Assembly: GCA_012295275.1 (NCBI GenBank)
Contig: CM022676.1
Location: 2,666,001-2,730,000 of the forward strand
Direction of reading: 5' to 3'
Length of the DNA: 64,000 bases
From: Chrysomallon squamiferum
Taxonomy: Eukaryota > Animalia > Mollusca
In this document: in pieces, positions 3,101-63,631 of the stretch
Numbering within the stretch: the stretch's first letter is position 1
How the letters are laid out: every line of letters starts with the position of its first letter
Program-made: the position numbers and the translations under genes
Notes under the pieces: generated by a model
Told to the model about the DNA's origin: nothing
What the model saw: only the letters and a program-made list of their open reading frames with translations
Database searches by the model: none

Positions 3101-4352
3101 CGGTGTCAAATGACGTCTTGCACACCCCAGCTATGTGGGAGGCATGTATTGATACAAAGTGTATTTCGTTTCCAGTTTTTTAAGTCTGTTTAGTTATCAA
3201 CAATACATGATACTTGTTGCAAACTTTTATCAGACTGGCAGAGTAGACTTGTTGTGATAGCACTAAGTGGTCAGTGTAATTCATTACAAACTGATAATCA
3301 TATATTGTTGCATTGTTATACTTTTGGTATCAACATGCACAATGTGACATGCCACATAATGATTTAATACAACGACAATCAGCTGTTCCAACTAGTTCAA
3401 GTTTTTAAATGCAAGAACACATCCTACTTACAGAATCTGCTGATACATTATTTGAAACTGAAAATGAATATCATATATAAAGTGCACCATTATATAAACA
3501 GCCCACTGCAACACGATTTGGAATAATTTAAAGCTACTTGTTAATTGAATAAGAAGAAAGGAACACAGCCACTTTTTGTGAAGCAATATTTCTGTATTCA
3601 TATTGTTGCCAATCTGCCTTAATCATAGTCAGCTCCACTCCAAGAATAAATTTGCATTTCAAAATGCCAAAATAAATTATATTATTTTTTTGATTATTAG
3701 TAATTCTACATTGATAACACGCAACTTAGTCAAGGCAAACATGTCTACAAACTGCAGAAAAACACTTTGTTGTGATTGAGAAAGCTTGAAAATGGTTTTG
3801 CAAAATTTGGATTTGTGGCTGTGGAAAGCTTTTGAAAAATCATGGAAACTTTGACAGCCTAAGGTGCACAAACCCTGAAAATAATTGTATACCACTGTAA
3901 TAAAAATAATTTTGTCACAGCAAGGATCAGAAAGGCCGTCAGAATATGTATTAAGCAAGAAGACATACAGGCTGTTGTTTTCAGTGGCGACTGTTTAATA
4001 AATAAGCAGACATGATAACAACACCATGTCTAATGGGTATTATGGCATTACATAATCTAATTAGTCAGTTTATACAATTATTTTAATATTAATCATTGCA
4101 TCCAAAAACGTGTGTATATTTATTTATATATATTTAGATGTACGTGTGAAATTCGGTTTGTTTGATATAATTTAAATGTTAAACTATTTCTTTTACTGAA
4201 TTTATTTAATACATGTGGAGTAATTTGAAACAGAATTTAAATTTTAAAACCAAAAGTATAATAGAAACAGATAATTAATTTTTTATGACAAAATAACAAT
4301 GATAATGATAATACTCATAATAATAATAATAAATAAAAAAATAATCATTATT

Positions 4353-4383
<31 letters not shown>

Positions 4384-4476
4384 TTTTTATAGCGAAAAGA
4401 AAGTGGAGAAAAGACAGAAAGGTGTTGTTCAGATAATTTTTATTTTAAAAAGTGTGCATTTCCATAGGTGTGTTCA

Positions 4477-4572
<96 letters not shown>

Positions 4573-4732
4573 ATAATAAAAAAATAGTTATCCTTAACAA
4601 AAAGAAAATATAAAATTATTTAGATTAATATTCTATTGTTATTGCTATTATTATCATTTTCAAAAACAAAAAATATAAAATTATTTAATTCTTTATGTCA
4701 GGTTAATATTCTAGTATTAATATTACTATTAC

Positions 4733-4803
<71 letters not shown>

Positions 4804-6347
4804 ACCACTATTATTATTATTATTATTATTAACTACCACTATTTTTATTGGCTTTTATTTTCAAAATTTATTTTTAAATTTGCTTAAAGCTTAATATAAA
4901 TATTTTAATATTACTACTTATTTCAAGACATAGACCAGTTATTTAGAAACTAAATATTTTTACTAATAATAATTATAGAAATTTCTGATGACAGAAACAG
5001 AGTGGTTTACAAAGGGAACTAGTTGATTAAAGAATACTCATCTGGAATTTTTCAACACATTTAATAATATGAACGATCAGATTCCATTTGACTCATTTAC
5101 TTTTGTTTAGGAGATGTTTATGAAAATGTTGATGTAAAGGATGATGGTGCATATGCAAATGCAGCATTTGAAGGAGAAAGTGCAGCAGGTCAGAATATAC
5201 AGGTAATAAATTAACATTTATGCACAGCAGTTATTAACTAAATAAATACAGAACTTTTTTTTAAAACTAATATGAATAAAAGGATAGAATAAACACTTGA
5301 ACCCATCGTAGATAAAGGACAGCTTTGACCAGTATCATACCCAGTAAAAACAAACCTAAACAAGAACTTACTTGTAAAACTTTGAAGCTATCAATGCAAA
5401 GAAAAACCTTGCCATTAGTTCCTCATATGGGGAAGAAAACAAACAACAAAAAAACATTGTATCCAAACATTTTAATTTATTTAAAGTTTCATGAAACATT
5501 TTTTTTTTTTTATCCCAATTTGTTGTCTAATATAATACATTAAATTTTAAATTTTGTATATATAACTCTATTTGTGTGAAATATTCTGAAATTTGATTTT
5601 CTTTTAATGTGAGAGAACAAAAAAAGATTAAAAAAAGTTATAGAAAATCTGACCAAAACTCAACCTATTTCAATGTGGAGACAAAGTTACAGTGAAATCT
5701 CTTTATTTACACTGGCTCTATTTTTCTCATATACTTTTTCTCAATGAACTATATGCAAGAAGGCCTGAAATGTTTATTTTAAATTATGTAATAGAACTTT
5801 GCAGGTATCATATATTATTGCATCTTCAGCAAATAGGTATTTGGCAGAGTAACTATGGCATATAGCTGGGGTAGTAAAACAAGGTAAATTTGGGTGTATT
5901 TAAAAAATAAGTTAAATTTATGTGTATTTATTTAATTCTTTTTTTATTTGAATCTTTCTAAAGTTAACTATTTGTGTATTCCAAAAAGTTAAATTTGTGT
6001 TTCTTAAAATGCAGACAAGTATTTTGGAGGTAATAAAGGGGAGAATGATGTTATAAAGGTATTTGATTAAAAAATTTCTTCAGTGACAAAATATTTGTTG
6101 AATACTGGAAGGCCTAAAGGGTATGGTATTAAGTAGTTATACGTCTTTTTTATTTCAGGGAGCAAAGCATGGCCGAAATGAAGATGGGTTACTGTATGTT
6201 GGTATAGATTTCTCTAACGCACAACCAAATAAACCAGTTCACAAAACACAGGACAAAGTGGAGTACGTCTCCACTGACTGGAACAAGAAAGCAGAACTAC
6301 TTCCTGATGAAGATGACAAACAAACAGAGCCTAAGAGTGAAAACTAA
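46..6347 (+). CDS. Gene 1: 3' cytoplasmic-tail exons of a tyrosine-motif (ITIM-type) membrane receptor; the 5' part lies upstream of the window
   Basis: Phase-compatible exons 46-105, 428-487, 1140-1274, 2607-2704 (1 nt short), possibly 4393-4421, 5111-5202 and 6159-6347 (stop). They encode LEELYYMN.., LEDNDLYF.., SQYSVV, a K/E-rich segment, DVYENV..GAYANA and GLLYVGIDF..VEYVSTDW. The ectodomain is not visible, so IgSF membership is inferred from context. Confidence 0.75.
428..487 (+). CDS. Gene 1 60-nt Tyr-containing tail exon
   Basis: tttcag|tg ttg gag gat aat gat ttg tat ... ttg cca g|gtttgt; phase 1-1; LEDNDLYFKSDDKKKLRLP. Confidence 0.7.
1140..1274 (+). CDS. Gene 1 tail exon with ITIM-like SQYSVV
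   Basis: NAGNAG acceptor (tag/cag), donor g|gtaaaa, 135 nt and open: GNDSRQVDPKPSTSSGVTAENTESQYSVVKTTKTGQSTSNQSKE. Confidence 0.75.
2607..2704 (+). CDS. Gene 1 Lys/Glu-rich tail exon (98 nt; 1-nt shortfall in an A-run)
   Basis: ttacag|gtgag...aaag|gtttgt. As written it hits TAA; one extra A in the A7 run gives a 99-nt phase 1-1 exon GEKGKTESANEKKKKEEKQDIKRREQEKKKKEK. Confidence 0.55.
2864..3877. mobile_element. Probable non-autonomous DNA transposon (MITE-like) in a gene 1 intron
   Basis: Imperfect terminal inverted repeats CAGGGATCGTATGCA / GTGCACAAACCCTG, with similar subterminal tggctgtggaaa..atggaaa blocks at both ends; no coding capacity. Confidence 0.45.
4479..4568. repeat. Compound (GT)n(GA)n microsatellite
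   Basis: Seen directly. Confidence 0.95.
4738..4830. repeat. (TTA)n microsatellite
   Basis: Seen directly; source of the poly-Leu ORF 4636-4887. Confidence 0.95.
5111..5202 (+). CDS. Gene 1 tail exon with YENV and YANA (YxN) motifs
   Basis: tttag|ga gat gtt tat gaa aat gtt ... ata cag|gtaata; phase 1-0, matching the next exon. Confidence 0.8.
6159..6347 (+). CDS. Gene 1 terminal coding exon with a tandem ITIM-like pair
   Basis: tttcag|gga gca aag; GAKHGRNEDGLLYVGIDFSNAQPNKPVHKTQDKVEYVSTDWNKKAELLPDEDDKQTEPKSEN*. Confidence 0.85.
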   Translation, partial: GAKHGRNEDGLLYVGIDFSNAQPNKPVHKTQDKVEYVSTDWNKKAELLPDEDDKQTEPKSEN

Positions 6348-10225: not shown

Positions 10226-10344
10226 TCATTTGTCACCTTTCTTCACATTTTCATACAGGTTCAGTTTGGTGTATTGTGGTTCTTCTCTGCTTTCTTGTAG
10301 ATCTTCATACATGTGGTCAGCTTTTACAATATTATTTTCAACAC
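10226..10344 (-). CDS. Gene 2 terminal exon, ITAM 2 plus YENV
   Basis: GVENNIVKADHMYEDLQESREEPQYTKLNLYENVKKGDK*. Confidence 0.85.
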
Positions 10345-10442: not shown

Positions 10443-10547
10443 CAGTTTGTCTCAGATTCTTGAGAATTCTTGAGTATTCAGTAGTATCTCTGTTTTGTTG
10501 AAGTCCTTCGTATGTCTGGTCTGTAACTGGACTCGGATGTTCCATAA
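10443..10547 (-). CDS. Gene 2 cytoplasmic exon, ITAM 1
   Basis: VMEHPSPVTDQTYEGLQQNRDTTEYSRILKNLRQT; 105 nt, phase 1-1. Confidence 0.85.
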
Positions 10548-19649: not shown

Positions 19650-20800
19650 TTTTCTTCTTTCAGTCAAACAGATAGTCAGATAGATCCTGATTATCTCTGG
19701 GATTAGAATTAAAACGATTACGAGGAGGTAAATATACTGAACATAATGTAATAGTTTTATGAGTTGAGAATTGTACAGCCACCTGCTGGAAATTAGTATT
19801 AAATTGAACTGTATTCTGGGCTATGTTTTCAATAAAACTTATGGATGAAGCCATGGAAACTGTACCTTCATCTTCATGAAATATACGATAAAGCTTAATC
19901 TGCTAATAGTGTCAGTTTCCTTCAGAAGAGAAACTGCAATAAGGCAGTATTTTTTTATGAAGGTAATTCGTCAATGTTCGATCTAAACTCGTGACAGTAT
20001 CACTAAATAAATGTATTTGCTATAACTGGAGATATTTTAATCTTATCTCTTGTTCGTTGAGATGTAGATGCTGATATAGATGTTATCTTGAGATGAGGTT
20101 TCTATCATGTAGTCAATATCAAGAGACAAAAAAGACTGTTAGTCAGGATAAAATTGTATTCATTCTTCTTTAATTGTGTCATATATCATGGTTTGAACAT
20201 TTTGAATGTATGGTATGTGTTCCTTAGTTGGTCTTACTGAAGCCTAACTTCTCAGTAGAAATCCACCTTGACAGACTGTTAGATTCTCAAGATACTTGAA
20301 TTTATTTCTGTGCAAGCTCCCTTATTAAATAACACTACATCATTTGGTCTGGTTAAGTCCGTCTGTATTTGAATAATTCTTGTAGATACTTCCACAGCTG
20401 AAATGGATTTTCAACTTTCAATTACTTCAGTTTTTCACTTTGGTCATTCTTGCTAATATGTGAAGAGCTTCTCCTTGTAGTTGGTGCTTACCACATCATT
20501 CTTACATCCCTTGTTGTCATGATCATATTGAACACAAGAAGCACGTATCACTTTGCTATGACATGCATTTTGACATTTAAAACACAGCAGAGGGTTTGGA
20601 ATTTAAGACAGACAGGTATACTCAGCCTCAACAGATTCCGGCCAACACTTATCGGCGTCACATGACCCAAGTAAAGATAATATATGCAATGCTCTTTCAC
20701 TGACAGACCCAATAACTAGAAAGCCTGGAAAGGCTTGAGAGGTAATAACCTTTATTTCATAAGCCAGTTTATCATCATCCAAAGATGAAACGTTACATAC
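19650..20800 (-). mobile_element. Degenerate 5' part of a LINE retrotransposon (I-group-like ORF1/gag + APE endonuclease start)
   Basis: FPGFLVIGSVSE.., an IPNPLLCFKCQNACH zinc-knuckle remnant, and QQVAVQFSTHKTITLCSVYLPP (APE endonuclease-like motif); many stops and frameshifts. Confidence 0.75.
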
Positions 20801-21148: not shown

Positions 21149-21466
21149 TTGCAAAAGGAGCTCTAAGTGTTAACCTCACAGAATATACAAAGTTTTGATA
21201 AGTTTCAGTAACATTCCAGGTTCCTGCGTGTTTTGTTTCATTAAAAGTAAAAATCTCAAGAGTTATGACATGTGTAGACTGTCTTGTTACATTGTAATTA
21301 AATCCAGAACCACACGGTCCACCTGATGCAAAACATGCTCCTTGTGCTGATCCATTCAGTATGAAAATAAGAGATCCTGTTATGTCTTCTTCACTGTTTG
21401 TGTAGATCAAAACAAGAAACTGACCAAGCACTGGCATTTTCTTGTCTGTGGTAAGAATTCTATTTC
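21149..21466 (-). CDS. Gene 2 N-terminal atypical V-like Ig domain exon
   Basis: 318 nt, phase 1-1; GNRILTTDKKMPVLGQFLVLIYT...GACFASGGPC...ITLEIFTFNETKHAGTWNV...VRLTLRAPFA. Confidence 0.7.
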
Positions 21467-22880: not shown

Positions 22881-22935
22881 CTAGACAGTAACTAACAAGG
22901 ATGACAGAAACAAGTAAATATCGAAGCAGCGCCAT
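22881..22935 (-). CDS. Gene 2 signal-peptide exon
   Basis: MALLRYLLVSVILVSYCL(G), 55 nt, donor gtaagc. Confidence 0.8.
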
Positions 22936-23899: not shown

Positions 23900-24677
23900 A
23901 ACTCTAGAAGAAAATAAATGAATTAAAAAGAAAGAGGAAACAGATAAGAAAGAAGAGGCTACAAAGAAAACAAATACTTTACCTAAAATACTTTTCACAG
24001 TCAGGGGGAAGATCACCATTATCTGGTGTAGCATTACTGTAGAAACGATCCACACTGACATTTTCTGGAATCTGACCTAGTTTCTAACTGCCTTGCATTG
24101 CTCTATGTTAAGTTCTATGTAAAAAAGAATATAAAACAAATTAGGTGTCGAGCATATATTTCTTTCTAAATGATGATTTGCAATGCTATCTTGTTAGTGT
24201 TGTAAGTAGAAAGAGCCTATTGACTGAACTGCAGATCTGAGTTATCATAGATAACAAGACAAATTCGTCCCAGTGCGCCTATTGTATTATTTGTCGTAGC
24301 TGCTAGTGTCTCATTTGTTTATATTTATATTTAAGTGATTAAATCTGCGTTGAAATGATATGGGAGCCGCTACGTGTACATCATCTCACTCTGCCTCCAA
24401 CTTTGTTAATCATAATCAAAGTTGTTTAGCTAAATAACTTCTCGGCATAATCATAAGTACAGACTTTGAGCGAAAAGTCTCTGAAGATTTTGAGGAGTTC
24501 ATTTCATATTGTTGATGTAAAAAAGAAAAAGAAGAAGAAACTTATGGACCAGATTTTTATAATGTATCCCTTCTAAAAATATATCATCATCTAGATATAG
24601 ATTCACTCTGACTAAAGTGGATTAGAAACTATTTTCATAGTACCAACTGAAGTAAAGTTATGAATAATCAAATATTG

Positions 24678-24717
<40 letters not shown>

Positions 24718-25538
24718 TGTACCGGATGAATGATTTTTTAAAATATTCAAATACGTTGCATACTGTAATATTTACCTCATTCGGAGCAGTTTAGTTAAAA
24801 CTGGGTTTTGATGATGCGATTCTCTCACTTGTTATAGATATGTCGTGCAGTTTACATAATTATATAGTGACAAAAGTTTAAGTCAAGTTTGAACACAAAA
24901 CCAACTGTAACCGGGACACAAACTCAATGAAGGTTTTGCGTTTTGTGTACATGAATTTTATTTCCAGTAATATTTAGTATGTTGTGACAAAACTTCTTTT
25001 CTACGGGTGAATGAGTTGTGCTCTCTGTGTGTTATCTTACTGTGTCACGTTATTACTACATCGCTCTCTCTATTATAGAGAGACTACTTCTTTCTGACTT
25101 TGATCAAATTATTCTCGCTTATCCAACTATTTAATTGAATGAAGGGAAATACGTACTAAAGTATCATTGTTTCATGACTTGCGGAAAAAACACAGCAAAC
25201 AGTACATCTAGAAGAAAATAAATGAATTAAAAAGAAAGAGAAAACAGATAAGAAAGAAGAGGCTACAAAGAAAACAAATACTTTACCTAAAATACTTTTC
25301 ACAGTCAGGGAGAAGATCACCATGATCTGGAATAACATTACTAATTAAATAAAAGTTACAACAAATCAAAGTACTGAATTAGATGCTGTTTTAGTTTTGT
25401 ATCGTTCTCAGCATCTGAAATCGCCATTGGTTATTCATAGCTTCTAGTCTGGGACAATTTCGAAAATATTCCACACTACCAATCCAGACTGTATCTGACA
25501 ATCACGATAGAAACAAGAAAGTATCCAAACAGCGCCAT
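23900..25538 (-). pseudogene. Relic of another gene 2-family paralogue: leader exon 25538-25484 plus intron-1 remnants
   Basis: MALFGYFLVSIVIVRYSL with the donor lost. 24060-24100 resembles 22095-22132 and 24820-24975 resembles 22680-22830. A direct repeat of about 130 bp lies at 23903-24030 / 25207-25330. Confidence 0.65.
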
Positions 25539-25850
25539 TTTGTTTGTTCTGACTAAACTGTTTTTTTTTCCCCGAGTACACGATTTTGTAGTCTGTCTAG
25601 GTCATCTGCAACTCTCTCTATTACTACAGGTCTCTCTCTCTGACTCTCACTGATATTTCCAGAGGTGTCCGATAAAATTTCATTTGAGTAATTTTAGATA
25701 TTGAATCAGTTATACAGTATTTTTGTATACATTCCCTAGAAAGAAAGAAAGAATAAATAAATAAAAAGGACAAAAACGATCTGGGATAAAAAAAGAATTG
25801 AAATAACTACAGAGACTCTGGAAGCCATGATTTCTAACACGTTTCAAAAA

Positions 25851-25914
<64 letters not shown>

Positions 25915-26095
25915 TATTTTACTATTGGCATACAAAACTCCTCATAACGAATAAGGAATAAAAACATTTCAGATTTTCTTTACAAATACACATTTTATTT
26001 CAAGATAGTAATAAGTTATTATCAGTTCTCATCGTAGTTGGATAAATTTTAATATGATAAATAAAAGTGAATAATTCTAAATAAATGTTATTACC

Positions 26096-26254
26096 TCAAC
26101 TCGGTGTGTTATCAGACACCTTCAGCTTTTCATACGCAGGTGCATCACGTGATTGTAAACACTCGTACTGAGTTGTAGGTATTTGACCATGTTCTATAAA
26201 TTTATTAATACTTTCATAAACACATTTTGATAAACTATTTTTCCGTAATATTTT
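26096..26254 (-). CDS. Gene 3 terminal exon with an ITAM
   Basis: KILRKNSLSKCVYESINKFIEHGQIPTTQYECLQSRDAPAYEKLKVSDNTPS*. An internal acceptor before EHGQ is also possible. Confidence 0.75.
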   Translation of the reverse strand, partial: KILRKNSLSKCVYESINKFIEHGQIPTTQYECLQSRDAPAYEKLKVSDNTPS

Positions 26255-27405
26255 CTAGAAAATATTAATTAAAGAAATCGTTACCGGAATTTGAAAAAAA
26301 TATTAGGCGCTTATTTTTAATTCATTTAATTTACTGCAGCTTCTTTGAGTTTATAACATATTGTATATAAAACAAACCTAATAATGTTCTTTCAGTCTTT
26401 GTCGAAATTACTTATTAATTGTTCAAGCTCTTCATGAAGTGAATAAAATATGTGACTGTTTGTAACTGTCTGCCTCTTTGTGTGTATGGGTTTATGCATA
26501 AGGTTTGTTAATGTGTATGAAAAATTGGCATCTGATTTTGAATTTCCGCAATCATCTTGATTAATACTTCAAGATCTACTTCAGTTTGAATCGTTTTATG
26601 TATTAAAGAGACAGCTTCTTTGCAAAGGAAATTACTCTAGTAAAACTAGGATCTAAAAAAGATACTCAAAACACTGGATTTCTATTTTACCTGCACAAAC
26701 AGCTGTTTCACCATTGATACGTCTTGATATCTGTGAAACATAATAAGAAAAATATACTGGTATCTCATTCAAGTATATTTGGTTTTACTTGCATTGCTGT
26801 AACGAGACAATCACACACTTTGCAGAGGTATTTATGTTAATAGAGCAATGTAAATATTTTATTAGAGGTTAATATATTTTCAATCCTGATACAATTTTGC
26901 AGCAAAATTTACTTTAAACATAAATAATGATATGATATAGTTATGCACTTTGGGCATACTAGTGTCTATTTCGAACAAGGTCTGCAGGTACTTTAGTAAA
27001 TAGATACTGAATATCTCTTATCACAGTAGTAATCAGAAATATTTCAACACACTACTCACGTATGTGTTTCATTTTCATTTTTGCTGTCTGAACCTGTAAC
27101 ATATATGTACAGTTGTATTTTACAAGCTAAATAATAATTCTTACGTTGAAATAATTGGATTGGATTTTCTTTTTTAAACAACCAATGAAAAAAGAAAGAA
27201 ACAATAATAAAAATAAATAAATGCACGCACATGCACACACACACACATACGTATATATAGTTAACGATCAGAAAAAATATTAAAAATAAAAAGTAAGAAA
27301 GAAAGATAATTTTAAAATAAATTATTAAAAACTACAATAAAATAAATACGAAATATTCAAAACAGTAAAACAATATCTAATGAGTGAGTCTAAAATTTAA
27401 CTGAC

Positions 27406-27534
27406 TACGGATGGTGTAACCTCTTCTCCTCAAGATGAACAGAATAATTATTGCAGGAAAGCAGAGCAGAAGTATTCCTACTACCAGACCAATTCCAATT
27501 CCAGTTCCAAGTGTTGCCATGGACGAAGATTCTT
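27406..27534 (-). CDS. Gene 3 transmembrane exon
   Basis: ESSSMATLGTGIGIGLVVGILLLCFPAIIILFILRRRGYTIR; donor a|gtcagt. Confidence 0.8.
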
Positions 27535-27798
27535 CTACAGTGATTATAATAACAAGTTTAACTACATAAATCAATTATCCGCATTTACGTTTAATTTTTT
27601 AATTAAAACTTTCTTCTAAAGATCTTTCCTTAAATAATGCCAATAGTTTCGACAATGTCAAATTCACCAGAACCTGTATACAAGTAATGTAAAAAAGTAA
27701 ACAAAAACACACAGAGAAGAAATAAATAAATAAATGAATAAATATTTTGCTGAAATTGTAAATGAAGAATCGAAAACTATATATATTATTTTACTTAC

Positions 27799-28086
27799 TA
27801 AAAGTAGTACAAACAGTCAAACAGTAACGGCTGTCATTTTTATTTGCAGACCAGTAAATTTTAAAGTGGTAGGAAGAATTGGACTTGAGATGAGAAATGT
27901 GTAAAGAAAAAGTCTTGTCGTGTCTCTTATTGTCTGACACTTGCAGACTGATAGACTGGTCTTCAGTAGACAAGCGTTGTTCGACAGTGAATCTAGTGAA
28001 CTTGTTTGTGTTGTATTTCCACTTGAGATCTGCTGAAGTTTCTAACACATTTGTGCAGTAACACCATTCAGGAGCTGATTCAAGAA
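27799..28086 (-). CDS. Gene 3 FN3 exon
   Basis: LESAPEWCYCTNVLETSADLKW..ISHLKSNSSYHFKIY; 288 nt, phase 1-1. Confidence 0.8.
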
Positions 28087-28282
28087 CTAAAACGTGAAAA
28101 AAGATTTATGTTGTGTTTTAATTTCATCTGCAATTTATATATATATACATTTTAGTAAAACCTGCATATAAAAATTGATACTGGCTAATTCTGATAGGGA
28201 TGGAAGCAACAAAAACAAAGAAATGAAAAATCATTTGTACTTGCTAACAAAGGTCACATGAAAAATGTGGAAATAAAGTTAC

Positions 28283-28543
28283 CTGTAACAATGACACTGG
28301 CAGATCCTGACACTGAAGTGTTAAAAGAAGTTTTTGAAATTGCTGAACACGTGTACTCTCCTTGGTCTGACTGTTGAAATGAGCAGATTTGAAACAGAGA
28401 ACCATCAGTGAGATGTTTTGTACCAGTTCGCCATTCAAATACAACACTGTCTGGATTACTGTCAGCTGTACAGTGTAGTATCACAAGTTTTCCCAGTTCA
28501 ACTCTGATGTGACTCTCTGATAAAATTCTTACTCTGGGTGCAT
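28283..28543 (-). CDS. Gene 3 Ig exon
   Basis: APRVRIL..VILHCTADSNPDSVVFEW..SDQGEYTCSA; 261 nt, phase 1-1. Confidence 0.85.
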
Positions 28544-29485
28544 CTACACAGACTGAAATACAAATATATGTAAAAAGAAGAAAAACAACAACATAATGCA
28601 TGCACAGAAAAAAAAATACAAGAAAAAATACAATTAATCTAAGAGGAAACAGAAAACAGATCACATAGATTGCATTATTTCGCAGAAAACTACTGAGGAG
28701 AAGTGGTAAAATACAGTTAACGTACATTGTTTATTTCTGTTTATTATTTATAAGGATGATGTGAGCATGTTGAAAGCAATATTCAAATATCTTCCTAAAT
28801 TATGTCAATATTATTTACTTATTTACTTAATGTGAAAGTTATAATGAACAAAGAAAACAAACAAAACAACAACATTTAAACAACATAAAATATACATTCG
28901 TATGAAGAGAATTAGATTCAAGTCTCTGTTGTCCACTTCTGTCTGTGAAGAGATTTCCAGCTGTACATTTGTACCAGCCTCCATTGTCTTCCTTTGTAGT
29001 TGTCAGAATTTAAATCCTGTATTTTGAATGTCTGTTCCATTTCTAATCCAATAAAACTGAGCTGCTGCATTTCCTTTACCACTGTCAGGTAAAGAACAAA
29101 TGAAAGAGCATCCTGTGTTTTCTAGCCATGGCTGTTTTGGATCTGATGAAAGTGTTGGTTTGTTTGGAGGATCTATTTAAAAGACTCGTTTTAATTCAGG
29201 TAAGTGGGGGTATTTATCTCTTCTTTTCACTTTTTTTTTCCACATTTTCTCATATAAAGAAGGAGAGGAATATAATTAAATCTGGCTGTATCTGTAATTG
29301 CTCTAAAATTACTATTATTGTTATTTTCTTTGGAGAGTCAGACATGTAGATGTGTTTCTTTCACAGTGTATCTAAACATCTTAATTTTATTCAACTATTC
29401 TCGTTTTAATTGTTGTAAGTTAAATATTTTGTACTAGAAATAAGTATTAATATCGATAGATACATACATACATACGTATACATAC

Positions 29486-29516
<31 letters not shown>

Positions 29517-32045
29517 TGTATACATAGAAACATACATCGATACACTATATATATATATTTAATTTGTGTATATTAAATTATATTAGAGGAATAGTTATTA
29601 AGCTATAGCGAATAATCATGTTTTTACAGTTATTCAATGTTTAGCTAATTAATGTTGGAATATGGTGTTAATTACACAAAAACTAAATAGCAGAGATTAT
29701 GCAGACTCCATGGCTGTTTAGAAGCTGTGTTATATAATTACGGGAATTTCCATTATTTTTATAAACGAAAAAACCCCCAAAACACTGGGATTAACTGAGA
29801 ATAAACATTTAAACTGCAAAGTGAATTCAGAAAGGCTGACTGCAGTTGTTTTATCCACGTGAGAAATATATATTTTGTGTGTGCATATTAACCAGGATCT
29901 TTTGATCAGTGCGCAGTCTTGCGTCACGTTGTCTGAGGGACATGAACGCGGGAGAAAGGATCACTCATGGAATGGTAATTACGTTTAAAGGTCTTTTTTT
30001 TAACATACATTTTGATTGCTAGAAGATAGCCAGGAATATTTTTATTGTTATTCTGTGGTAGTTACTTATGCTTGAAAACTAAGTAAGATAACAAAAAGCT
30101 TAGTTAGAAAGTTAACATAACAAACTGGGCTTATTTAGAACAGTATCTGTGAATGTTTTTGCATTTGAATTATATCGTGAGAATTTTACAATTTATTTAT
30201 TTTTTGTTACCATTGATGGTTAATTTATGTGATACATTAAAAAAAAATAACCCATATTCAATTCTTCTTTGTGTTGTTATCCCCTAGTGGATACATAACA
30301 GTAATTTAGTAGCTTAAGCTTTCTCAGATCATTAATAGCTTGTCACTTGACACTATTGTTTGAAAGAAAGAAAGAAAAGAAAACATAATAAGGAAAACAA
30401 AATTGAAAAATGAAAATAAATAATTTTTACTCTCTTGCTTAGCTAATTCGGAAACGACGGATAACTATTGTAATTATCATTTTCTTTGTTGTTACAAACT
30501 GTCATGTCATTTTGTTATATCATCTTTTTTCTTTGTCTGGAAATAACGATATACAAAGATCCTGGTCTGTTTGTGTCATGAATATATTGATCTTTTTTTA
30601 TTATTATTTTTATTTTTATCTATTACTATATCATTCGAAATGTGTCCTCTTCGATACAGGTTTCTTTTATTTCTTTGTTATCGAAGGAGTAAAACATATA
30701 AATAATTAAAAATGATTTGGTTTCGATTTGGGTGGGTTTAGCTGTGTAAATATATCTTTATGTTATATGTATCAATTCTGTTAAGTCATGTAGTAAGAAT
30801 AGAGAGAGATGCTATTTTAAAACGTAACAAATCAAAGTAGTCACAGAATTATCGTTAGTGAATTACACTCTAAACTCTATTGACAAAAGTTTTTATTCAT
30901 ACTGAATTGGGTTATTTTAAATAATTGTTATACAAAATACAGCAGTAAGTAATACTGTATGCTGGGCTTAGTCTCTTACTTTTCACTATACTATTGAACT
31001 ATATAACGTGCAGCAGTCATTGCTTGACGATTTTCTGTCTAACATTTTAAAAAGCCTTCAGATTGCAATTATTCTCATTTGACATTATACTCATGGGAAA
31101 ACACTTTAATAGTGGTGGGTAACGTAGCTGGGTGGAGATGCTATATCTTCCATATAATCTCCACCAACCTCCTAACAGAATTTCCAGTTATAATTTTAAA
31201 TCAGTAATTACTTTTGTTAACATTTTGTATGCATAGATATATATGTTCATGCGTGTGCATACACTCACAAGCAACACCATGACATACACAAACATAAAAA
31301 ATACATTACATATATACATTCACACCCACACAAATACACCATTACGCTCTAATTGTCAACCTGCCCTTCCATCAGAAATGACGGAAGTACCGTCGTTAAA
31401 GACTTGTACAACGAACGTTATTATATTATTATTATTAAGGTTGTTATAATGACAAAGCAGTATTTGTCAGTGTTTTATTTTTAGTTTAGTTTCTACTTCC
31501 TTGATTACTTTAGATATTTTTAGAAAAATTAAATAATAAAAAAAATTAGTACTAAGTTCTAAGTTAAATTATTAAAACATTAAAAGATAAAAATGTTCAG
31601 GTAGCAGAAAAAAGACAACTAAAAAATGTTAACTGACAAGAATCAGTTTTGTTTTGCATCATCAGTATCATCAAATCTGATCTGAGTTTTCCACTACTCA
31701 AAACTAACCGACAAAAATGATGATTGATTTGACATATGTAGGACATTTTAATTGATATTTTTGTTTCAGATGACAATACATTTTTTTAAATTTAATTTTC
31801 ACTTACCATTAACATTTGCCTTCTCATTTTAACAGGAATTTAGCTTCCAATCAACAAACTAAATTACACGCCTTGGATGCCTTAACAAAATGATTTAACT
31901 AAGATGTATCATTTAAAATTTATAATATTAATTTATTTGCTAACTGAAAATAAGTTTAAAAGATTGATGTTGATCAGTCTCTCATCATTAGTAACTGACA
32001 TTTTAAAGTTTCTGATTTTCTGTTGTGTCTGATTCTTTAGATTTT

Positions 32046-34294
<2,249 letters not shown>

Positions 34295-37260
34295 CTGAAA
34301 ATAAAACATTAAAAGTTTACATCTTTAACATTTATTTTATACATTAGCAGTTACCAGATGTTAATCATATTTATGATCTTATATTAGTATTAGAGAAAGC
34401 TGATCATATTATGGATTACTCATATTTCTTAAACAGGCATCTTCTTAGACCAGATACCAAGTAGAATGCTGTTAAACAAACCAGTAATTTGTATATCCTG
34501 TGAATTTCCAATCAGATATAAAATGATATACATCTAATTTCTCTAAAGAATTAAATTCTAAAAAAAGAAAAGAAAAAAAGATTCAAATGCTGCATGCATT
34601 TCTGTGCCGTTATAATTTACGAGACTCATGTAAAAATATTATAAACATTTCAAATGTTCTTGTTATTTAGAACATTTCAATTGAAAACTTCAATATTTGT
34701 AAGCAAACCCTATAATATTTCTATATCATGTTTCAGAATATTATACACATTATATACATTGCCTTACCTCTTAACTTAGAGAGTGTCTTAGTAAGTGTGG
34801 TTGTTTATATTAGTTAATAGTGATATATAGGGGGTTCATGCATATAGATACTGTGTATAGTTAGAAAATCTAAATAAATATGATCCAAAAAACAAAGGCA
34901 CTGATTATTATTATTATTGGTGGTAGTATTATAGTTTTAATGTTTTATGTTCATCTTCCAAATCTTATCTCAGGAGTATGATTTAAAATGTTGAAAACAA
35001 CTGAAAAACGTATTTATCTGTAAATATGCAGCCCACATCTGTTTTAGTTGATATTTTAAGGACCAGATTTTCTTTTAGATACAAAATGTAACCAGTTTAT
35101 TTATCAATTTTTCAAAAAAGCTCTTCAGTATTGAAAGTGTAGTTTCATTTTTGTTTGTACAGAAGAACAGAACAAGGTTTTACATTTCCAACCAATTCTG
35201 TAATCTGACAGACTGTGAACTAATTGATGTGCCTGACAAAGAGATTATCTGCAACAGAGATGCAGTTTTAGGTGGTGATAAAAAAGAAAATTTGAAAACA
35301 CAACATTAATCAATCTGACCGTATTTTCATGTAATGAAGAAGTTGAAATAAAACAAATAAAATGGGCTGTGAATGTTTTGTATTTAGCTACCAACACCTT
35401 ACATGCAAAACATACCTCACATCAGGAAACAAACTGAGCAATCTGAGTGATTGTTGCCTGCAGCATCTGGAACAAATAAAAACACCCTTTGTGTTATTTA
35501 ACTGTGTAGTAATACTGCTTTAAACTGTTTTCAGTTTATACAGTGAAAGTGAATGTGAGACAAATATCTGCTTTACTCCATAAACAAGTCACACATCTAA
35601 AATGAAAACATTATTTGTGCAACAAAAGCTGATAAGAAAAATGAATAAAATATCTTAATATAGGATTTAAAACAGCAACTGAGAAAATCAAAATACATTC
35701 TTTACATCAAACAAGATTTTAAAAGTTCCACTTTTTAAATTTCAAACAATTCTTTTACACTGCTCCTTGAAAAAATAAAAAATCTTGAACACTTTTTAAT
35801 ATAGTTTTTCTATATAGCTTTATAACTTTTATGATCTACTGTTAACAGCAAGATATTTAAACGTGTCTCTCTCTCTATGCTAGAAAGTCAGTGATTGTAG
35901 TAGTTAAATTTAATTGGATCTGATTTTTAAGAGTAAAAGTAATAATAATTTACAACAGATTTTGTATCTGTTAGAGGATGAGTCGTCACAATATTTACAT
36001 GGGTGAAACTTCATGTTAATTCATTCATTACAATAGCAATTTATGAAGCTGGTCATATTTGTTAACACTACCAATCTACAAATACTTAAACTTTGTGTAA
36101 ATACTATTAATCATGTACCAAATACCAAATATAAAACTTATAACTGAGTTATAACTGCAAATGTTATTAACAGACAACAAGGACAGTAAGACAGTTTTAG
36201 ATGCATCATTTTCAGTGGTTATAACTGGACTGATATGATAGTTAAATATGCTCTTGTCTAGCTGATTGTATTGTAAGTTTATTATTGGACTGTAACATGT
36301 ACATTTTCTGTCCTCTGTTTTGCTATAATGAAATGTGACCTTTCATGGCCATATCGTGTCAAATAGATGTCCAAATGTTATCTGCATCCCTCATAACAAG
36401 CCAGCTTAATTATTCTCAGATACAATTTGCAGTTAGTAATATTAACAAATATCGTAAATTACAATTTTAATATTTAATGTAATCACAAAAAATCTGATAC
36501 ATATCTATAATCATAATAATAATTATTAGTGTTAAAAAAAATTAACAGGAATAAAGTATGGGGTAAAATGTATAATATAACAAAACCAGTCAATGCTGAC
36601 TTAATTAAGAAAATGATTACATCTATTTATTTCATGATGTTTTAGTATCATTATCAAAGTTCAAAACTGAACTGAAGATTATTTTTAATTATATTCACCA
36701 TTATCATTCTATTTAATGTGATCCTTATACTTACATGATTTCAGTTTTGCCTCTGTTTTGTGTGAAACAGAAGATGGAATAAAACACTGTCACAGAAAAA
36801 AATTGAAATACTATCTATTACTTAAATAATTACCAGTTTCTTAAAGGAAAGAGTACTCACTTGTATATATGTATACAAACACTGACTGACTGTGTTGTTT
36901 CTGCTGTTGTAACACAATTTTTAAACTATACGAAAACTATCAATCAATAGAAAAATAAGTAAAAAAGTATACTAATTTCAAAAACAAACACAAACCTAAA
37001 CATAAATCTAAGAATGACATTTCAAAGTAATTTTGAGTAAATATCTTAAAATAAAAAAGTCTGGGTTTCATGCTTTGTATTTAACAGTAACATTATGTCA
37101 TAACTACACCAGCCATGATATAGAACTTTAAACAGTTTAGGTTAAATACGTATATATATTTAGGTATACATATAGATAGATAGATACATAGATAGATGTA
37201 ATTACGTAGACTACTGTAGAGAGGAAAAGACAGACAACACTGCTTCACCATTTCACAGAC

Positions 37261-39005
37261 TTACACGACAAAGAAAATGCTGACTACAACGAGTAACACA
37301 GAAGAGACTACAGCAACGGCAGTTACAGCAGTTTTGTTACATTCACAATCGATGATATTTTCTTTTACAGTCGATGTGACATCTGGCTTGGGAGGCAACG
37401 TTAAATATGTTCATATAATTAATGATTATAAACCAAGTCAGTATCATCCATGATTACATCGAATATACTATCACAATAATTGACTGATATAATTGTTTAG
37501 TCCGTGTATTCAAATTAATTTTCAACTTCAAGGTAAACACAATCAACTTTACTGTAAAGATGTGTTGACAAAATAATTATTTAAGACATTACATACAAGT
37601 GTGTATTATCTATATTTTTATAGCTATCCTCATTATTACATCTAAATCTTATAAATTTAGGAGTAACTGTAAATCTTACTAAGCGGTATAAACCACGAGT
37701 TTCAAACTTGTAAAGTTATCAGCATCAAATAACATAAAATAAAAATATCGTAGTATCTATAATGCAGACTAAAATACAAAAATTTCATATTACTATTAAT
37801 ACCAAGATTTACTTTCAGTGTAAAATAAACATAATGCCTATAAAAAAATATAAAATAATAATAATAAAATTTAAAAATTAAAATGGGAAAATTTACAAAT
37901 ATACTTCCTCGATTGATGAGCTTTTCTGTAATATAAAAACACAAAAAATGTTGAGAAATAAACAATTATGAAAATTATTTTGCTTGCTGAGGTAAATGTT
38001 AAAATATTTATGTTGTAATAGACATTATTGTAAACGATCAAAACACTACACAAATATAAATCTGTCATTTCACAATTATCTTTACCCAATGAATAACACA
38101 GCAATAATTAGAGTGATTTGTATGATATTATTTATACGTCAGCACCAATTGAAATATAATTCTGTATGATCTACTGTCCTGGTACGTTCGAGTTACATTT
38201 TAAACTGAAATGAGTCAGTATTAACATTGTTTACACATAAACAAGACGGTACTTTTCATTTATAAAAAATAAAAATGACATTTAGAAATAAAATAATTAT
38301 TACTTTTATATTGATACAGCATACAAACAAACAGGAAAACAGAAACACATGCAGAAATGCATAGATGAAATGAAACCTGCATACTGCAGAAAGATGCTCA
38401 GCTGCAGAGATTAACAGAAAAATGGAAACCAATTCTAAAACCAAATAAATTGAAATCTTACTTTCAGTATTGATGGTAAAGTTTGCAGAATACAGCTCAT
38501 TATTACCCACAATGCATCTGAACATTCGTGTGTTGTCAGTGAGAGATACAGTGTGATTTAAAACAGAACTTCCTCTGTTCTCACACCCAGATAGTGTAGG
38601 TGGGTCATCTTTGATTCTGTCTGTGTTTGGGTACAGCATCCACTTCATGTCAGCAGCATACTTCCACTGCCACGACCACGACTGTGCTGGGTTACCAACA
38701 TTTCCATTACACCTGAACTCTACAGTTTCACTGATAACATAGGGGCTGAACTCCTTTCTTGGTGTAACGATCATTTCAATTTCACCAGGTTTTGCTGAAA
38801 CAGATAAAAACACGAAGTAAATAAACACTGCTTTTTTTCTGTAATTTAGTTCAATTATATATATATATATATATAGACACAGATAGTTAGACGAAATTTG
38901 TATTATATACAAATATACTTTTTTCGACTAATTTTGAAACGATCATTTCAATTTCACCTGGTTTTGCTGATGTAAAAACACAAAATAAATAAACACTAAT
39001 TTATT

Positions 39006-39048
<43 letters not shown>

Positions 39049-40833
39049 GATAGTTAGACGAAATTTGTATTATATACAAATATACTTTTTTCGACTAATT
39101 TTGAAAAGTAATTGTTTGTGTTGAACATTTTCTTTCTCGCTTATTGACTTAGATATTTTTACACAAGTACAAATAACAGACATAAAAAACATGAACATTT
39201 CACTTTATCTGAAATGACATCTTCACTTACTTTCTCTAGTACTGTTCTATAATCAGTAATAAAACAAGTGAATTCACCCAAATACATCAACAACTAATAT
39301 TATATAAAACCAAGTTTTAACTTACATTTGTTGGTAAAGTTATATCATCAACAACAACAGAAATGAAATTCTCTAAATGCACAACAACTCATAAAAATAA
39401 ATCATGTTTTCACTTACTTTGAATGGTGATGTTATCAGAACTTTCAGAGGAATCTGGACTACCATCAAATGTGGTATAACCAATTATACAGATATATTCT
39501 CCTGAATCACTGCAAGTCATTCCTGTCAGTTGAATCTGGACAAAAGATCCTGATTTGTCATTGTTGTCTGACTTTCCTGTAACTGTTGCTCTTGAACCAA
39601 AGTTGTTTACATCTTTTAAAATAGCTTTACCTCCATTTATTACTGACACAGCAGAAGCTATCGAAACATCAGTACTGGAATTGCTGAGAAGTCTTCTCTT
39701 CACTGATAGAGAATTAATTAAATCAACCTGACTGACAATGTTACCAAGACTACATCTGACTGTCACAGGAACTCCTTCATAAACAGGATGTGGGCTGATT
39801 GTCAGTTGTGCGGCTTCACCTGTAAGTAAACATGAACAAAGAAATAACTCAAAAATGTAATAAACGTTTTCAATGTCAATGTTATATATTTCTTAATCTG
39901 CATAATATGTTTTTCATATAAATCAGAAGAAAACATTAATTTTAATTTAATGAGTTTTCTTCCATATTTCAAATATTTCATCACATAATGTACTGAAATT
40001 AAAGAATTTTTTTAAGTTAAATTCATAGAATAAAAGATTAGTAATGTATTTAAATGAATTTAAAGGACCAAATTTGAAAAAAAAAAATTGAAACAATAAT
40101 ATTCTCAAGAGATTATTTAAAATGCAAAAGATTAATAATAGAATAAAAACATTTTTCGAAATAAAATGTAAATAAAAACATAGTATTTGAGATGAAAGTA
40201 TAATTGACGGGAGTAATATGATTACATTTTCAAACATGCCGATACACTCGGAGAGATAGAGAAAATGACAGACAGACAGACAGAGAGACATAGCCACAAT
40301 ACAAGTAGATTTCATATATATTTCAAAAATAAATTATGTAATGTAACGGTCTGAATGTAGGTATAAATATACTGCAATATCAGTCAGATGACATTGCATG
40401 ATAAAGATAATCAGCTACAAATATAAAACGACCACTCCAGAACTATAAATATATGGCACCCAACACTGCACTTATCCAAACTAAAAATCACTTGTAAACC
40501 CTGTTTATAAAATACTTCCTGGTCTAGTCAAAATGTCTGTGACATACAAGAGTAATACAAGAGTAACAGTCAATGTTAAACTTGAAAACAAAATATAAGA
40601 GACACACCCAGACACACACACACATTACATACAATCAGTTAGATAAAATATAACAATAAATAAAATTAATTTGTTAAACGCATTAATAAAAAAAACAATC
40701 ACTTCCTGTATTTCTCGATAGATCAAAACTGAAGACTTGTATTTAGAGCTAAACAAAAACAAATTAAGTAAAACTCACCAGTTGAAGTCAGTGTTAAACT
40801 TGTTAATAAAATAACAGTGATTACTGTGGACAT
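37261..40833 (-). CDS. Gene 5A: leader + V-like Ig + Ig2 + stalk/hydrophobic C-terminus
   Basis: Exons 40833-40779 (MSTVITVILLTSLTLTST), 39819-39418 (V-like, TVRC..CSDSGEYIC), 38794-38462 (FRCNGNVGNP..WQWK..MFRCIV) and last exon 37412 or 37382 to 37261 (..DCECNKTAVTAVAVVSSVLLVVVSIFFVV*). The homologous last-exon acceptor is AT instead of AG; a cryptic in-frame CAG lies at 37383. Confidence 0.75.
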
Positions 40834-46580: not shown

Positions 46581-46634
46581 GATAGATACTATTTTACCAG
46601 TGCCCTACGTATTAACGTCCAGCCTTACGTTTAG

Positions 46635-48351
<1,717 letters not shown>

Positions 48352-48474
48352 AATTACAGATCTGTTTCATATCTATACAAATTTGTTTCATAGTATTTTT
48401 GACGTTTTTCAAAATACTACTCATGTATTTCTACGACAATTAAATATTTCTTAGCAAATCTGGATCTTCATTAC

Positions 48475-61191: not shown

Positions 61192-62457
61192 TACTTAAGA
61201 AATGAAGTAAGTAAATAAGTAAATAAGCAAGTAAATAACCTAAGTAAGTAATAAAGGAAGTATGTTCGAAAATAATCACCTAAGTAAGTACGTACGTAAA
61301 TAATTAGATAAGAAAGAAGAAACTTAATTAAGAACGTAAATAATTACTTAAGTAAGTACCGAAGAGAGGAAAGAGTACGTAACGTAAATAATTAACTAAT
61401 TAAGAAATAAAGTAAGTAAGTAAGTAAATAATTACCTAAGTAAGTAAGAAAGGAAGTATGTTCGTAAATAATCAACTAGGTAACTAAGTACGTAAATAAT
61501 TAGGTAAGAAAGAAAGAACGTAAGTAAGTACGTAAATAATTACCTAAGCAAGTACCAACGAGAGTTAGGACGTAAAAAATTATATAATTAAGAATTAAAG
61601 TAAGTAACTAAGTAAGTAAGTAAGTAAATAAATGTTTCCCTAAGTATGAAAGGAAGTATGTTTGTAAATAATTGCCTATGTAAGTACGTAAATAATTATC
61701 TAAGTAAGTAAGAAAGTAAGTAAGTACGTAAACAATTACTTGGGAAAGAAAAAATGCAAGTAAGAACGTAAATATTTACCTAAGTGAGTAACAAAGCAAG
61801 TAAGTAAGAATGTAAATAATTACATAATTAAGAAATAAAGTAAGTAACAACGTAAATAATTACCTAATTAAGACAAAAGTAAGTAAGTAAGAATGAAAAT
61901 AATTATCTACGTAAGTAATAAAGGAAGTAGGTTCGAAAATAATCACGTAAGTAAGTAAGTACCAAAGTGACTTAGTACGTAAATAATTACCTAATTACGA
62001 AATAAAGTAAGTAAGTTAGTAAATAATTACCTAAGTAAGTAAGAAAGGAAGTGTGTTCGCAAATAATCAACTAAGTAACTACGTAAATAATTAGGTAAGA
62101 AAGAAAGAACGTAAGTAACTATGTAAATAATTACGTAAGTACCAATGAGAGTTAGTACGTAAATAATTACATAATTAAGAGAAAAAGTAAGTTAGTAAGT
62201 AAATATTTGCCTAAGAAAGTAAGAAAGAAAGTATGTTCGTAAGTAATTACGTTAGTAAGTAAGAAAGTAAGTAAGTACCTAAACAATTACGTAAGTAAGT
62301 ACGTAAATAATTACCTAAATAAGCAGCAATGCAAGTAAGTACGCAAATAATTACCTAAGTAATTATGAAAGTATGTGTGTACGTAAACAATTACCTAAGT
62401 AATTGAGAAAGCAAGTTATTACATAAATAATTACCTAATTAATAAATAAAGTAAATT
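61192..62457 (+). repeat. AT-rich satellite array (core aagtaagtacgtaaataattacct)
   Basis: About 1.27 kb of degenerate short tandem units. Confidence 0.9.
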
Positions 62458-63431: not shown

Positions 63432-63631
63432 CTAAGCCAGGTGAAATTGAAATGATCGTTACACCAAAAATGGAGTTCAACTTCTATACTGTCAATGAAA
63501 CTGTACAGTTCGGGTGTAATGGAAATGTTGGTAACCCAGCCCAATCGTGGTCGTGGCAGTTGAAGTACACTGGTGACATGATGTGGATATCGTACCCATA
63601 CACATACAGAATCAAGGATGAACCACCTACA
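63432..63631 (+). pseudogene. 5' half of an Ig2 exon, truncated by satellite DNA
   Basis: tttcag|ct aag cca ggt gaa att..CNGNVGNPAQSWSWQLKY..RIKDEPPT, then satellite. Confidence 0.85.

What the first reader, a model, noticed from the sequence alone, without database searches (positions are those of the whole stretch)
26096..26254. Third, homologous ITAM in gene 3
Seen: TQYECL-QSRDAPA-YEKL (YxxL-x7-YxxL), plus upstream VYESI and TYQDV. It shares the YExLQ..R(D/E)..Y..L signature with both gene 2 ITAMs, although the FN3 and TM exons of the two genes are barely alignable. Inference: the ITAM has been selectively retained while the rest diverged.
Basis: partly seen in the sequence, partly recalled or inferred. 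Interest (0 to 1): 0.7.

Follow-up and report, generated by a model that had tools for sequence, protein, structure and literature searches.

The report
Broken copy of snail ITAM receptor
The signalling motif is really in the DNA and matches those of neighbouring, likely immune-activating snail cell-surface receptors, but this gene copy is broken and, spliced the way related RNAs are, would not translate the motif, so it is likely a dead member of a fast-changing receptor family.

Summary
The motif YECL-x7-YEKL is real (minus strand, 26167-26123) and homologous to gene 2's two ITAM exons. Related Ig-FN3-TM proteins of Gigantopelta, Haliotis and Solemya carry similar tails. All 6 spliced RNA contigs seen use the acceptor at 26193, not 26254, so VYESI is intronic in them. 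The window's preceding exon is 10 nt shorter than in those RNAs, which puts the ITAM out of frame. This copy also lacks 5' exons and has a frameshifted Ig exon with a lost donor. It is most likely a pseudogene. Relatives are expressed: some keep the ITAM in frame, two contigs have a stop just before it, and RNAs from three runs read through into a gene-2-type exon. Selective retention is supported for the family (non-anchor core 18/44 identical, flanks 7/63) but not for this copy. 'The rest diverged' is too simple, since one Ig exon is 87% identical between genes 2 and 3. ITAM-bearing Ig receptors are already known in oyster (CgIgR) and Hydractinia (Alr). The more interesting lead is an ITIM-like tail in the same cluster, which suggests paired receptors.

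The parts
26123..26167 (-). ITAM-type motif YECL-x7-YEKL; lacks the acidic residue at -3 found in the gene 2 and Gigantopelta motifs
26095..26193 (-). ITAM exon of gene 3 (99 nt, phase 1 acceptor; stop at 26098-26096 immediately before a GT donor at 26094)
   Evidence: acceptor supported by 6 RNA contigs in X1, X3, X4; donor by RNA loose ends in the same runs
26194..26254 (-).
26691..26730 (-). Penultimate cytoplasmic exon, 40 nt here against 50 nt in the spliced RNAs, so the ITAM is out of frame
   Evidence: X5 record 25 identical to the window over 26651-26745; records 24 and 26 have 11 gaps; RNA junction letters
27060..27093 (-). First cytoplasmic exon (34 nt); boundaries from AG/GT and phase only
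27409..27534 (-). Transmembrane exon followed by RRR (type I orientation); an alternative donor at 27420 gives the same phase
27799..28086 (-). FN3 exon
   Evidence: Pfam fn3 E=6.6e-7, above the curated cut-off; Atlas fn3 clusters at 0.95; spliced to the Ig exon in X1, X2, X3
28283..28543 (-). Ig exon, open
   Evidence: Pfam Ig_3 E=4.7e-9; joint 28086-28283 in three RNA runs
28889..29172 (-). Broken Ig exon: 4-nt deletion near 29006 with an in-frame stop; TT where gene 2 has the GT donor; first recognisable exon of this copy
   Evidence: the deletion was not checked against reads
22881..22935 (-). Signal-peptide-like exon of gene 2, skipped by the read-through RNAs
   Evidence: signal peptide judged by eye
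21149..21466 (-). First ectodomain exon of gene 2 (no Pfam hit); a relative of it follows the ITAM exon in RNA contigs of X1, X3, X4
   Evidence: 26 of 30 letters match at 21431-21460, next best 19 of 30
10443..10547 (-). Gene 2 ITAM exon A (YEGL-x8-YSRI)
10228..10344 (-). Gene 2 ITAM exon B (YEDL-x8-YTKL, followed by NLYENV)
6159..6347 (+). Last exon of gene 1 with ITIM-like LLYVGI; matches the tail of Gigantopelta P0007, whose ectodomain is gene-2-like
   Evidence: tblastn 65% over 63 aa, E=2.8e-19

Best explanation
The motif is a homologue of the ITAMs of a multi-copy family of snail Ig-FN3-transmembrane receptors that likely signal through Syk, but the copy in this window is broken and is most likely a pseudogene whose ITAM would not be translated. 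Shown: the motif, its own phase-1 exon, the RNA-supported acceptor at 26193, the 10-nt-short preceding exon, the frameshifted Ig exon, the missing 5' exons, and expressed relatives both with and without an in-frame ITAM. Inferred from oyster CgIgR and the established ITAM pathway: in intact relatives the Ig/FN3 ectodomain would bind a ligand (likely microbial) and cluster; a Src-family kinase would phosphorylate both tyrosines; the tandem SH2 domains of Syk would dock and trigger haemocyte activation or phagocytosis. Inferred history: ITAM exons were duplicated and kept under purifying selection while ectodomain exons were shuffled or converted between neighbours, and individual copies such as this one decayed (birth-and-death evolution).
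For: Motif and exon homology: gene 3 against gene 2 exon B, 0 of 5000 shuffles; against exon A, 183 of 5000. Core against flanks: 18/44 and 7/63. Four of 5 hits to gene 2's Ig-FN3 exon are Gigantopelta aegis proteins at 60% identity, and P0004 has two YEGL-x8-YSxL motifs. Of 155 fetched proteins, 16 had a TM plus tail and 3 of these an ITAM: Gigantopelta P0004, Solemya P0076, Haliotis P0110. The oyster CgIgR ITAM also ends in YEKL and binds CgSyk (PMC6994640 passages). Breakage of this copy. The 40-nt exon is present letter for letter in run X5. The RNA contig whose ITAM exon is within 1 letter of the window's (X4 record 17) has a stop as the last full codon before that exon, and an X1 contig shows the same letters (read by hand). 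In-frame junctions occur in X1 record 3, which has 7 differences, and in the consensus of three X3 contigs. X5 holds at least three versions of the penultimate exon.
Against: No full-length gene-3-type protein was found: 0 of 25 and 0 of 44 candidates passed, and nothing among 172 fetched proteins resembles its FN3 beyond background (best 28.5 bits). Cross-species conservation therefore rests on gene-2-type proteins. The gene 3 motif lacks the -3 acidic residue and has a 7-residue spacer where gene 2 and P0004 have 8. No contig links the TM exon to the ITAM exon, so the frame upstream of the penultimate exon is taken from genomic splice sites. The 4-nt deletion and the missing 5' exons were not checked against reads and could be assembly errors; a frameshift in an A-run of gene 1 shows that such errors are possible here. 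The RNA runs are short contigs from one study. Phosphorylation and Syk binding are untested, and Syk could not be sought in this genome (no assembly held).
Confidence: 0.7

Rival explanations
1. One reading: this copy is a working receptor that splices to the AG at 26256-26255, which offsets the 10-nt shortfall (61 - 10 = 51 nt) and keeps VYESI and the ITAM in frame.
For: The frame is open from the TM exon to the stop with this acceptor, and the site has a good pyrimidine tract. No RNA contig carrying the 40-nt exon was seen spliced at all, so its own acceptor choice is unobserved.
Against: 6 of 6 spliced RNA contigs use 26193. The upstream Ig exon is frameshifted and has lost its donor. No signal peptide or N-terminal exon was found between 29172 and the end of the upstream gene, and the exon that precedes this one in X3 RNA is absent from the window (best match 11 mismatches in 30).
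Confidence: 0.06
2. ITAM-less versions (frameshift here, nonsense codon in X1 and X4) are kept on purpose as non-signalling decoys or dampeners beside activating and ITIM-bearing relatives.
For: Two different lesions hit the same exon just before the ITAM. The nonsense form is expressed in two runs and is the deeper of the two ITAM-exon contigs in X4. An ITIM-like tail lies in the same cluster.
Against: The window copy is also broken in its ectodomain. The nonsense transcript has downstream exon junctions, which by established knowledge makes it a likely target of nonsense-mediated decay. Its ectodomain was not seen. Contig depth is not a measure of expression.
Confidence: 0.1
3. In the gene-3 subfamily the motif is an inherited relic or serves as a pair of YxxL sorting (endocytosis) signals, not as a Syk-docking ITAM.
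For: The -3 acidic residue is missing and the spacer is one residue shorter than in gene 2 and P0004. No binding data exist. That YxxL also fits the AP-2 sorting consensus is recalled knowledge.
Against: Both half-motifs are kept at ITAM spacing, with inner residues conserved above the flanks. A diverged paralog appears to swap L for I at the second half-motif. The oyster CgIgR motif has the same YEKL end and recruits Syk.
Confidence: 0.12

Closest known systems
CgIgR of the Pacific oyster (PMC6994640; passages read)
   Same: Molluscan type I receptor with several Ig domains, a TM segment and a cytoplasmic ITAM ending in YEKL; shown there to bind bacteria, dimerise and recruit CgSyk.
   Different: Described with five Ig domains and no FN3 in the passages seen; a single gene was studied; orthology to this family was not tested; the copy here is broken.
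Hydractinia Alr family (PMC9546547; passages read)
   Same: [quoted passage not shown]
   Different: Cnidarian, tied to allorecognition by genetics; no homology test was made here and no such function is known for the snail genes.
Gigantopelta aegis XP_041379249.1 (P0004) and XP_041372798.1 (P0007); Haliotis cracherodii XP_071094638.1 (P0110); Solemya velum KAL5019558.1 (P0076)
   Same: Ig-FN3-TM proteins; P0004, P0110 and P0076 have two ITAM-type motifs, P0007 has an ITIM-like tail matching gene 1; the Gigantopelta proteins are 60-61% identical to gene 2's Ig-FN3 exon.
   Different: They are gene-2-type ectodomains, carry only automated names (NCAM-L1-like, turtle-like, uncharacterised), and none is a clear orthologue of gene 3.
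CgNCAM1 of the Pacific oyster (PMC11841013; passages read)
   Same: Molluscan Ig-FN3-TM receptor with two ITIMs, the inhibitory counterpart of the architecture seen in gene 1 and P0007.
   Different: Not described as paired with an ITAM-bearing twin in the passages seen ('ITAM' occurs 0 times in the text).
Vertebrate paired receptors such as CEACAM1/CEACAM3, LILR, Siglec-5/14 (search listing and abstract starts only)
   Same: Similar ectodomains with opposing ITAM and ITIM tails, clustered and fast evolving.
   Different: A functional analogy only; no sequence relationship was tested and no shared ligand is known for the snail genes.

Membership tests
ITAM | Yxx[I/L]-x(6-9)-Yxx[L/I] core (consensus as given in PMC9546547) | tested here: met
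   YECL-x7-YEKL
ITAM | Acidic residue three before the first tyrosine (D/ExxYxxL/I, as given in PMC6994640) | tested here: not met
   T at -3 in gene 3; D in both gene 2 motifs and both P0004 motifs
ITAM | Translated in the cytoplasmic tail of a membrane protein: window copy | tested here: not met
   Out of frame with the RNA-supported acceptor; ectodomain broken
ITAM | Translated in the cytoplasmic tail of a membrane protein: expressed relatives | tested here: inconclusive
   In-frame last junction in X1 record 3 and in the X3 consensus; no contig spans TM to ITAM
ITAM | Both tyrosines phosphorylated by a Src-family kinase and bound by Syk/Shark tandem SH2 | not testable with these tools
   Needs biochemistry; no genome held to look for Syk
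Molluscan Ig-(FN3)-TM-ITAM receptors (CgIgR-like) | Extracellular Ig domains, TM segment, ITAM-type tail in the exon chain | tested here: met
   Pfam Ig_3 and fn3 above cut-off, TM exon, ITAM exon
Molluscan Ig-(FN3)-TM-ITAM receptors (CgIgR-like) | Complete open reading frame with signal peptide | tested here: not met
   No 5' exons found; two frameshifts; lost donor
Molluscan Ig-(FN3)-TM-ITAM receptors (CgIgR-like) | Orthology to CgIgR, microbe binding, haemocyte expression | not tested
   CgIgR sequence not fetched; tissue of the RNA runs not given
Paired activating/inhibitory receptors | Similar ectodomains with opposing tails | tested here: met
   Gigantopelta P0004 (ITAMs) and P0007 (ITIM-like) share 156 of 213 Ig-FN3 residues, against 60-61% of each to gene 2; gene 1's own ectodomain lies outside the window
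Paired activating/inhibitory receptors | Clustered genes; ectodomains homogenised within a species | tested here: inconclusive
   ITAM and ITIM-like tails lie within 5 kb in the window; tree support for grouping the Gigantopelta ITAM and ITIM clades is only 57, or 84 with P0009
Paired activating/inhibitory receptors | Shared ligand and opposing signalling | not testable with these tools
   Needs experiments

The most novel reading that the evidence does not exclude
Vent snails and other molluscs run a vertebrate-style paired-receptor cluster: Ig-FN3 receptors with shared, shuffled ectodomain exons are coupled to ITAM tails (genes 2 and 3), ITIM-like tails (gene 1, P0007) or ITAM-less tails, with rapid gene birth, death and read-through splicing between neighbours, tuning how the host responds to microbes, possibly including its symbionts.
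Probability: 0.35. Interest if true: 0.62.

Novelty: new member of a known kind. Interest (0 to 1): 0.33.

Why it matters
The single motif matters little: it lies in a broken gene, and ITAM-bearing Ig receptors are already described in oyster and Hydractinia. What it marks is of more use. It points to an unannotated, multi-copy receptor family across snails and a clam, filed in databases under automated names such as 'titin-like' or 'turtle-like', with activating, inhibitory-type and dead members side by side. If these are paired receptors, the activating/inhibitory logic of vertebrate innate immunity also exists as a gene cluster in gastropods, and it can be tested directly with Syk and SHP binding assays and long-read haplotypes.

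Tried and rejected
Searches for gene-3-type proteins failed: FN3 exon 0 of 25 candidates, shared Ig exon 0 of 44. These are weak negatives, since one search also missed P0003, which holds that domain at 57%. The Atlas gave only generic fn3 clusters, and a query with gene 2's first exon did not complete. The ITAM exon peptide has no Pfam hit (protein 19). Chance origin was rejected: generic ITAM patterns are common in microsatellite frames of this window (40 of 6427 AG-started segments), but the family signature is not. An assembly error for the 10-nt-short exon was rejected because X5 holds it unchanged, though X5 may be the source of the assembly and so is not independent. A translated gene3-gene2 fusion was considered: the junction is phase 1 to phase 1 and some X5 copies lack the stop, but the read-through contigs seen all keep the stop, and the product would place Ig domains in the cytoplasm. 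Contig depth was not used as copy number or expression. Three look-ups in earlier findings returned nothing. No structure or complex prediction was run, since phosphotyrosine-dependent binding cannot be modelled with these tools.

Full report
Setting. The window is AT-rich (GC 0.24-0.37 per 2 kb), intron-rich animal DNA with a run of Ig-domain genes. The best database relatives of gene 2's Ig-FN3 exon are four Gigantopelta aegis proteins at 60% identity, among 5 hits from 600 candidates. I infer a gastropod, likely close to Gigantopelta. No assembly is held for the window.

1. The observation. YECL-QSRDAPA-YEKL lies on the minus strand at 26167-26123, followed by a stop at 26098-26096. Generic ITAM patterns are frequent in microsatellite frames. 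The signature YExLQ-x5-8-Yxx[LI] occurs 3 times in the window, in this exon and in gene 2's two tail exons, against 3 matches in total over 60 shuffles (the pattern was written from these motifs). The exon peptide aligns with gene 2's exon B better than all 5000 shuffles, and with exon A better than all but 183 of 5000. Each motif sits on its own phase-1 exon. The FN3 exons do not align (276 of 2000 shuffles reach the score) and the TM exons align weakly. One Ig exon, however, is 86.6% identical over 299 bp between the two genes, so gene 3 is a mosaic and not uniformly diverged.

2. The splice frame. Five public runs hold the region: four RNA runs of one study, and one run of unrecorded type that covers introns like DNA. 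I laid X1, X2, X3, X5 on 24200-31900 and X1, X3, X4, X5 on 26040-26800. Of the 22 RNA contigs laid, 6 are spliced into the ITAM exon, all at 26193 (two in X1, three in X3, one in X4). No listed row shows a junction at 26254, and one X1 contig runs unspliced across both sites; table 7 was cut by 23 rows. VYESI is therefore intronic in every spliced RNA seen. In these RNAs the preceding exon is 50 nt long, while the window's is 40 nt (26730-26691). With the 26193 acceptor the window copy leaves the ITAM frame and stops after 23 other residues; only the unused 26254 acceptor would restore it. The 40-nt exon is real DNA: X5 record 25 matches 26651-26745 without a difference, and records 24 and 26 carry the longer form. 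Read by hand from the junction letters, X1 record 3 (7 differences in the ITAM exon) and the consensus of three X3 contigs enter the ITAM in frame. The X1 joint contig and X4 record 17 have a stop as the last full codon before the ITAM exon, and record 17 is within 1 letter of the window over that exon. The version closest to the window that I could read fully is thus also ITAM-less, by a different lesion.

3. The rest of the copy. The Ig exon at 29172-28889 has a 4-nt deletion with an in-frame stop, and TT where gene 2 has the GT donor. No signal-peptide or N-terminal exon was found between 29172 and the end of the upstream gene near 32045. The exon that precedes this Ig exon in X3 RNA is not in the window (best match 11 mismatches in 30), though it may belong to another family member that shares the exon. 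The 4-nt deletion and the missing 5' part were not checked against reads, and an A-run frameshift in gene 1 shows that assembly errors are possible. The Ig-FN3 junction 28283-28086 is spliced in X1, X2 and X3, so gene-3-type genes are expressed.

4. Read-through. RNA contigs in X1, X3 and X4 leave the ITAM exon at the GT donor at 26094 and continue into a sequence matching 21460-21431 at 26 of 30 letters (next best 19 of 30). That is the start of gene 2's first ectodomain exon, whose acceptor is at 21466; gene 2's signal-peptide-like exon at 22935-22881 is skipped. The 4 mismatches point to another allele or another tandem unit. These contigs keep the stop at 26098-26096, so the downstream exon would be untranslated. 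X5 record 20 has a sense codon there, so other copies read on into a further exon, as gene 2 does; which exon is unknown.

5. Selective retention. With the two tyrosines anchored by hand and one gap for the shorter spacer, gene 3 against gene 2A, gene 2B and the two motifs of Gigantopelta P0004 gives 4/11, 6/11, 3/11 and 5/11 identities at non-anchor core positions (18 of 44). The flanks give 0/15, 1/16, 3/16 and 3/16 (7 of 63). X4 record 18, a diverged paralog, matches 46 of 52 letters over the core and reads N-I for K-L at the second half-motif, with an unrelated flank after it (its 6 differences were not printed, so its tyrosines are assumed). Among 155 fetched proteins, 16 had a TM segment plus a tail and 3 of these an ITAM: Gigantopelta P0004, Solemya velum P0076 and Haliotis cracherodii P0110. 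Haliotis rubra P0108 has a relaxed form, and P0108 and P0110 share gene 2B's trailing YEN. These are gene-2-type ectodomains; no gene-3-type protein was found. Retention is thus supported for the family over a long time, and not for this copy. The gene 3 motif lacks the acidic residue at -3 that the gene 2 and P0004 motifs have.

6. Mechanism. Shown: exon anatomy, lesions, expression of relatives with in-frame and truncated tails. Inferred from oyster CgIgR, whose ITAM also ends in YEKL and recruits CgSyk (PMC6994640, passages), and from the established pathway: ligand binding and clustering, Src-family phosphorylation of both tyrosines, Syk docking, haemocyte activation. I put 0.7 on this reading, in which intact relatives signal and the window copy is dead. 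The rivals are a sorting signal or relic (0.12), purposeful ITAM-less decoys (0.10) and rescue by the 26254 acceptor (0.06).

7. Context. Gene 1's tail exons (plus strand, 428-6347) match the tail of Gigantopelta P0007, with 65% identity over the last 63 aa (E=2.8e-19). P0007 has ITIM-like LVYVGI and VEYMSI on a gene-2-type ectodomain. P0004 (ITAMs) and P0007 share 156 of 213 Ig-FN3 residues, more than either shares with gene 2 (60-61%), but tree support for grouping them is weak (57, or 84 with P0009). ITIM patterns are short and matched 8 of the 16 tails, so the label rests on a pattern plus cross-species conservation. This suggests, but does not show, a paired-receptor cluster.

8. What is known. 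ITAM-bearing Ig receptors are described in oyster (PMC6994640), ITIM-bearing Ig-FN3 receptors in oyster (PMC11841013, passages), and clustered Ig-Fn3-like genes with ITAMs, ITIMs and expressed pseudogenes in Hydractinia (PMC9546547, passages). A 2025 review gives only the oyster case for a molluscan ITAM (PMC11999971, passages). The Gigantopelta genome paper lists an expanded 'CEACAM5' family without tail motifs in the passages seen (PMC7895826); whether that is this family was not tested. The Biomphalaria sudanica paper describes clusters of single-pass Ig/FN3 genes and does not use the word ITAM (PMC10875847, passages). Nine searches listed no description of a gastropod ITAM/ITIM cluster; the library lacks most subscription journals, and I read no supplements, which could hold such annotations.

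Verdict. The motif is real and homologous, and it is conserved in the family. It is out of frame in this broken copy, and it is a new member of a known kind. Interest 0.33; the paired-receptor reading of the cluster has probability about 0.35 and would deserve about 0.6.

Noticed in passing
window 10912-10910 (-): Gene 2's TM exon has an in-frame TGA where homologs have a small residue, so gene 2 may also be broken, or misassembled, upstream of its two ITAMs; not checked against reads.
   Followed up: partly
window 428-6347 (+): Gene 1 tail exons match the long lysine-rich, ITIM-like tail of Gigantopelta P0007; exon 2607-2704 has a frameshift in an A-run, possibly an assembly error.
   Followed up: partly
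window 26095 to 21466 (-): Read-through splicing from the gene 3 ITAM exon into a gene-2-type first ectodomain exon in three RNA runs, skipping the signal-peptide-like exon.
   Followed up: partly
window 25538-25485 and 9613-9559 (-): Two further copies of gene 2's signal-peptide-like exon: one without a GT donor at the homologous place, one with an in-frame stop; relics of tandem duplication.
   Followed up: partly
window 26098-26096 and the penultimate exon of X1/X4 RNAs: Two successive exons each occur in a form where the last full codon before the donor is a stop and in a form where it is serine; probably coincidence, unexplained.
   Followed up: no
window 32045-39900 (-): Upstream gene with V-like and Ig exons, two hydrophobic TM-like exons (about 34294-34193 and 33301-33199) and a short lysine-rich tail without tyrosine motifs.
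   Followed up: no
window 37200-63700: Several duplicated and partly decayed copies of V-like and Ig exons, 80-95% identical, including inverted ones; the block 37.2-45.5 kb repeats at 54.6-60.6 kb.
   Followed up: no
window 46616-48454 (+): A plus-strand Ig exon, a TM-like exon and a tail exon with tyrosines, in the opposite orientation to its neighbours.
   Followed up: no
window 61200-62450 and 63630-64000: AAGT-based satellite arrays in opposite orientations flanking an Ig exon.
   Followed up: no
window 19660-19902 (-): Decayed frame in a gene 2 intron that resembles the endonuclease of a non-LTR retrotransposon (recalled resemblance, not tested).
   Followed up: no
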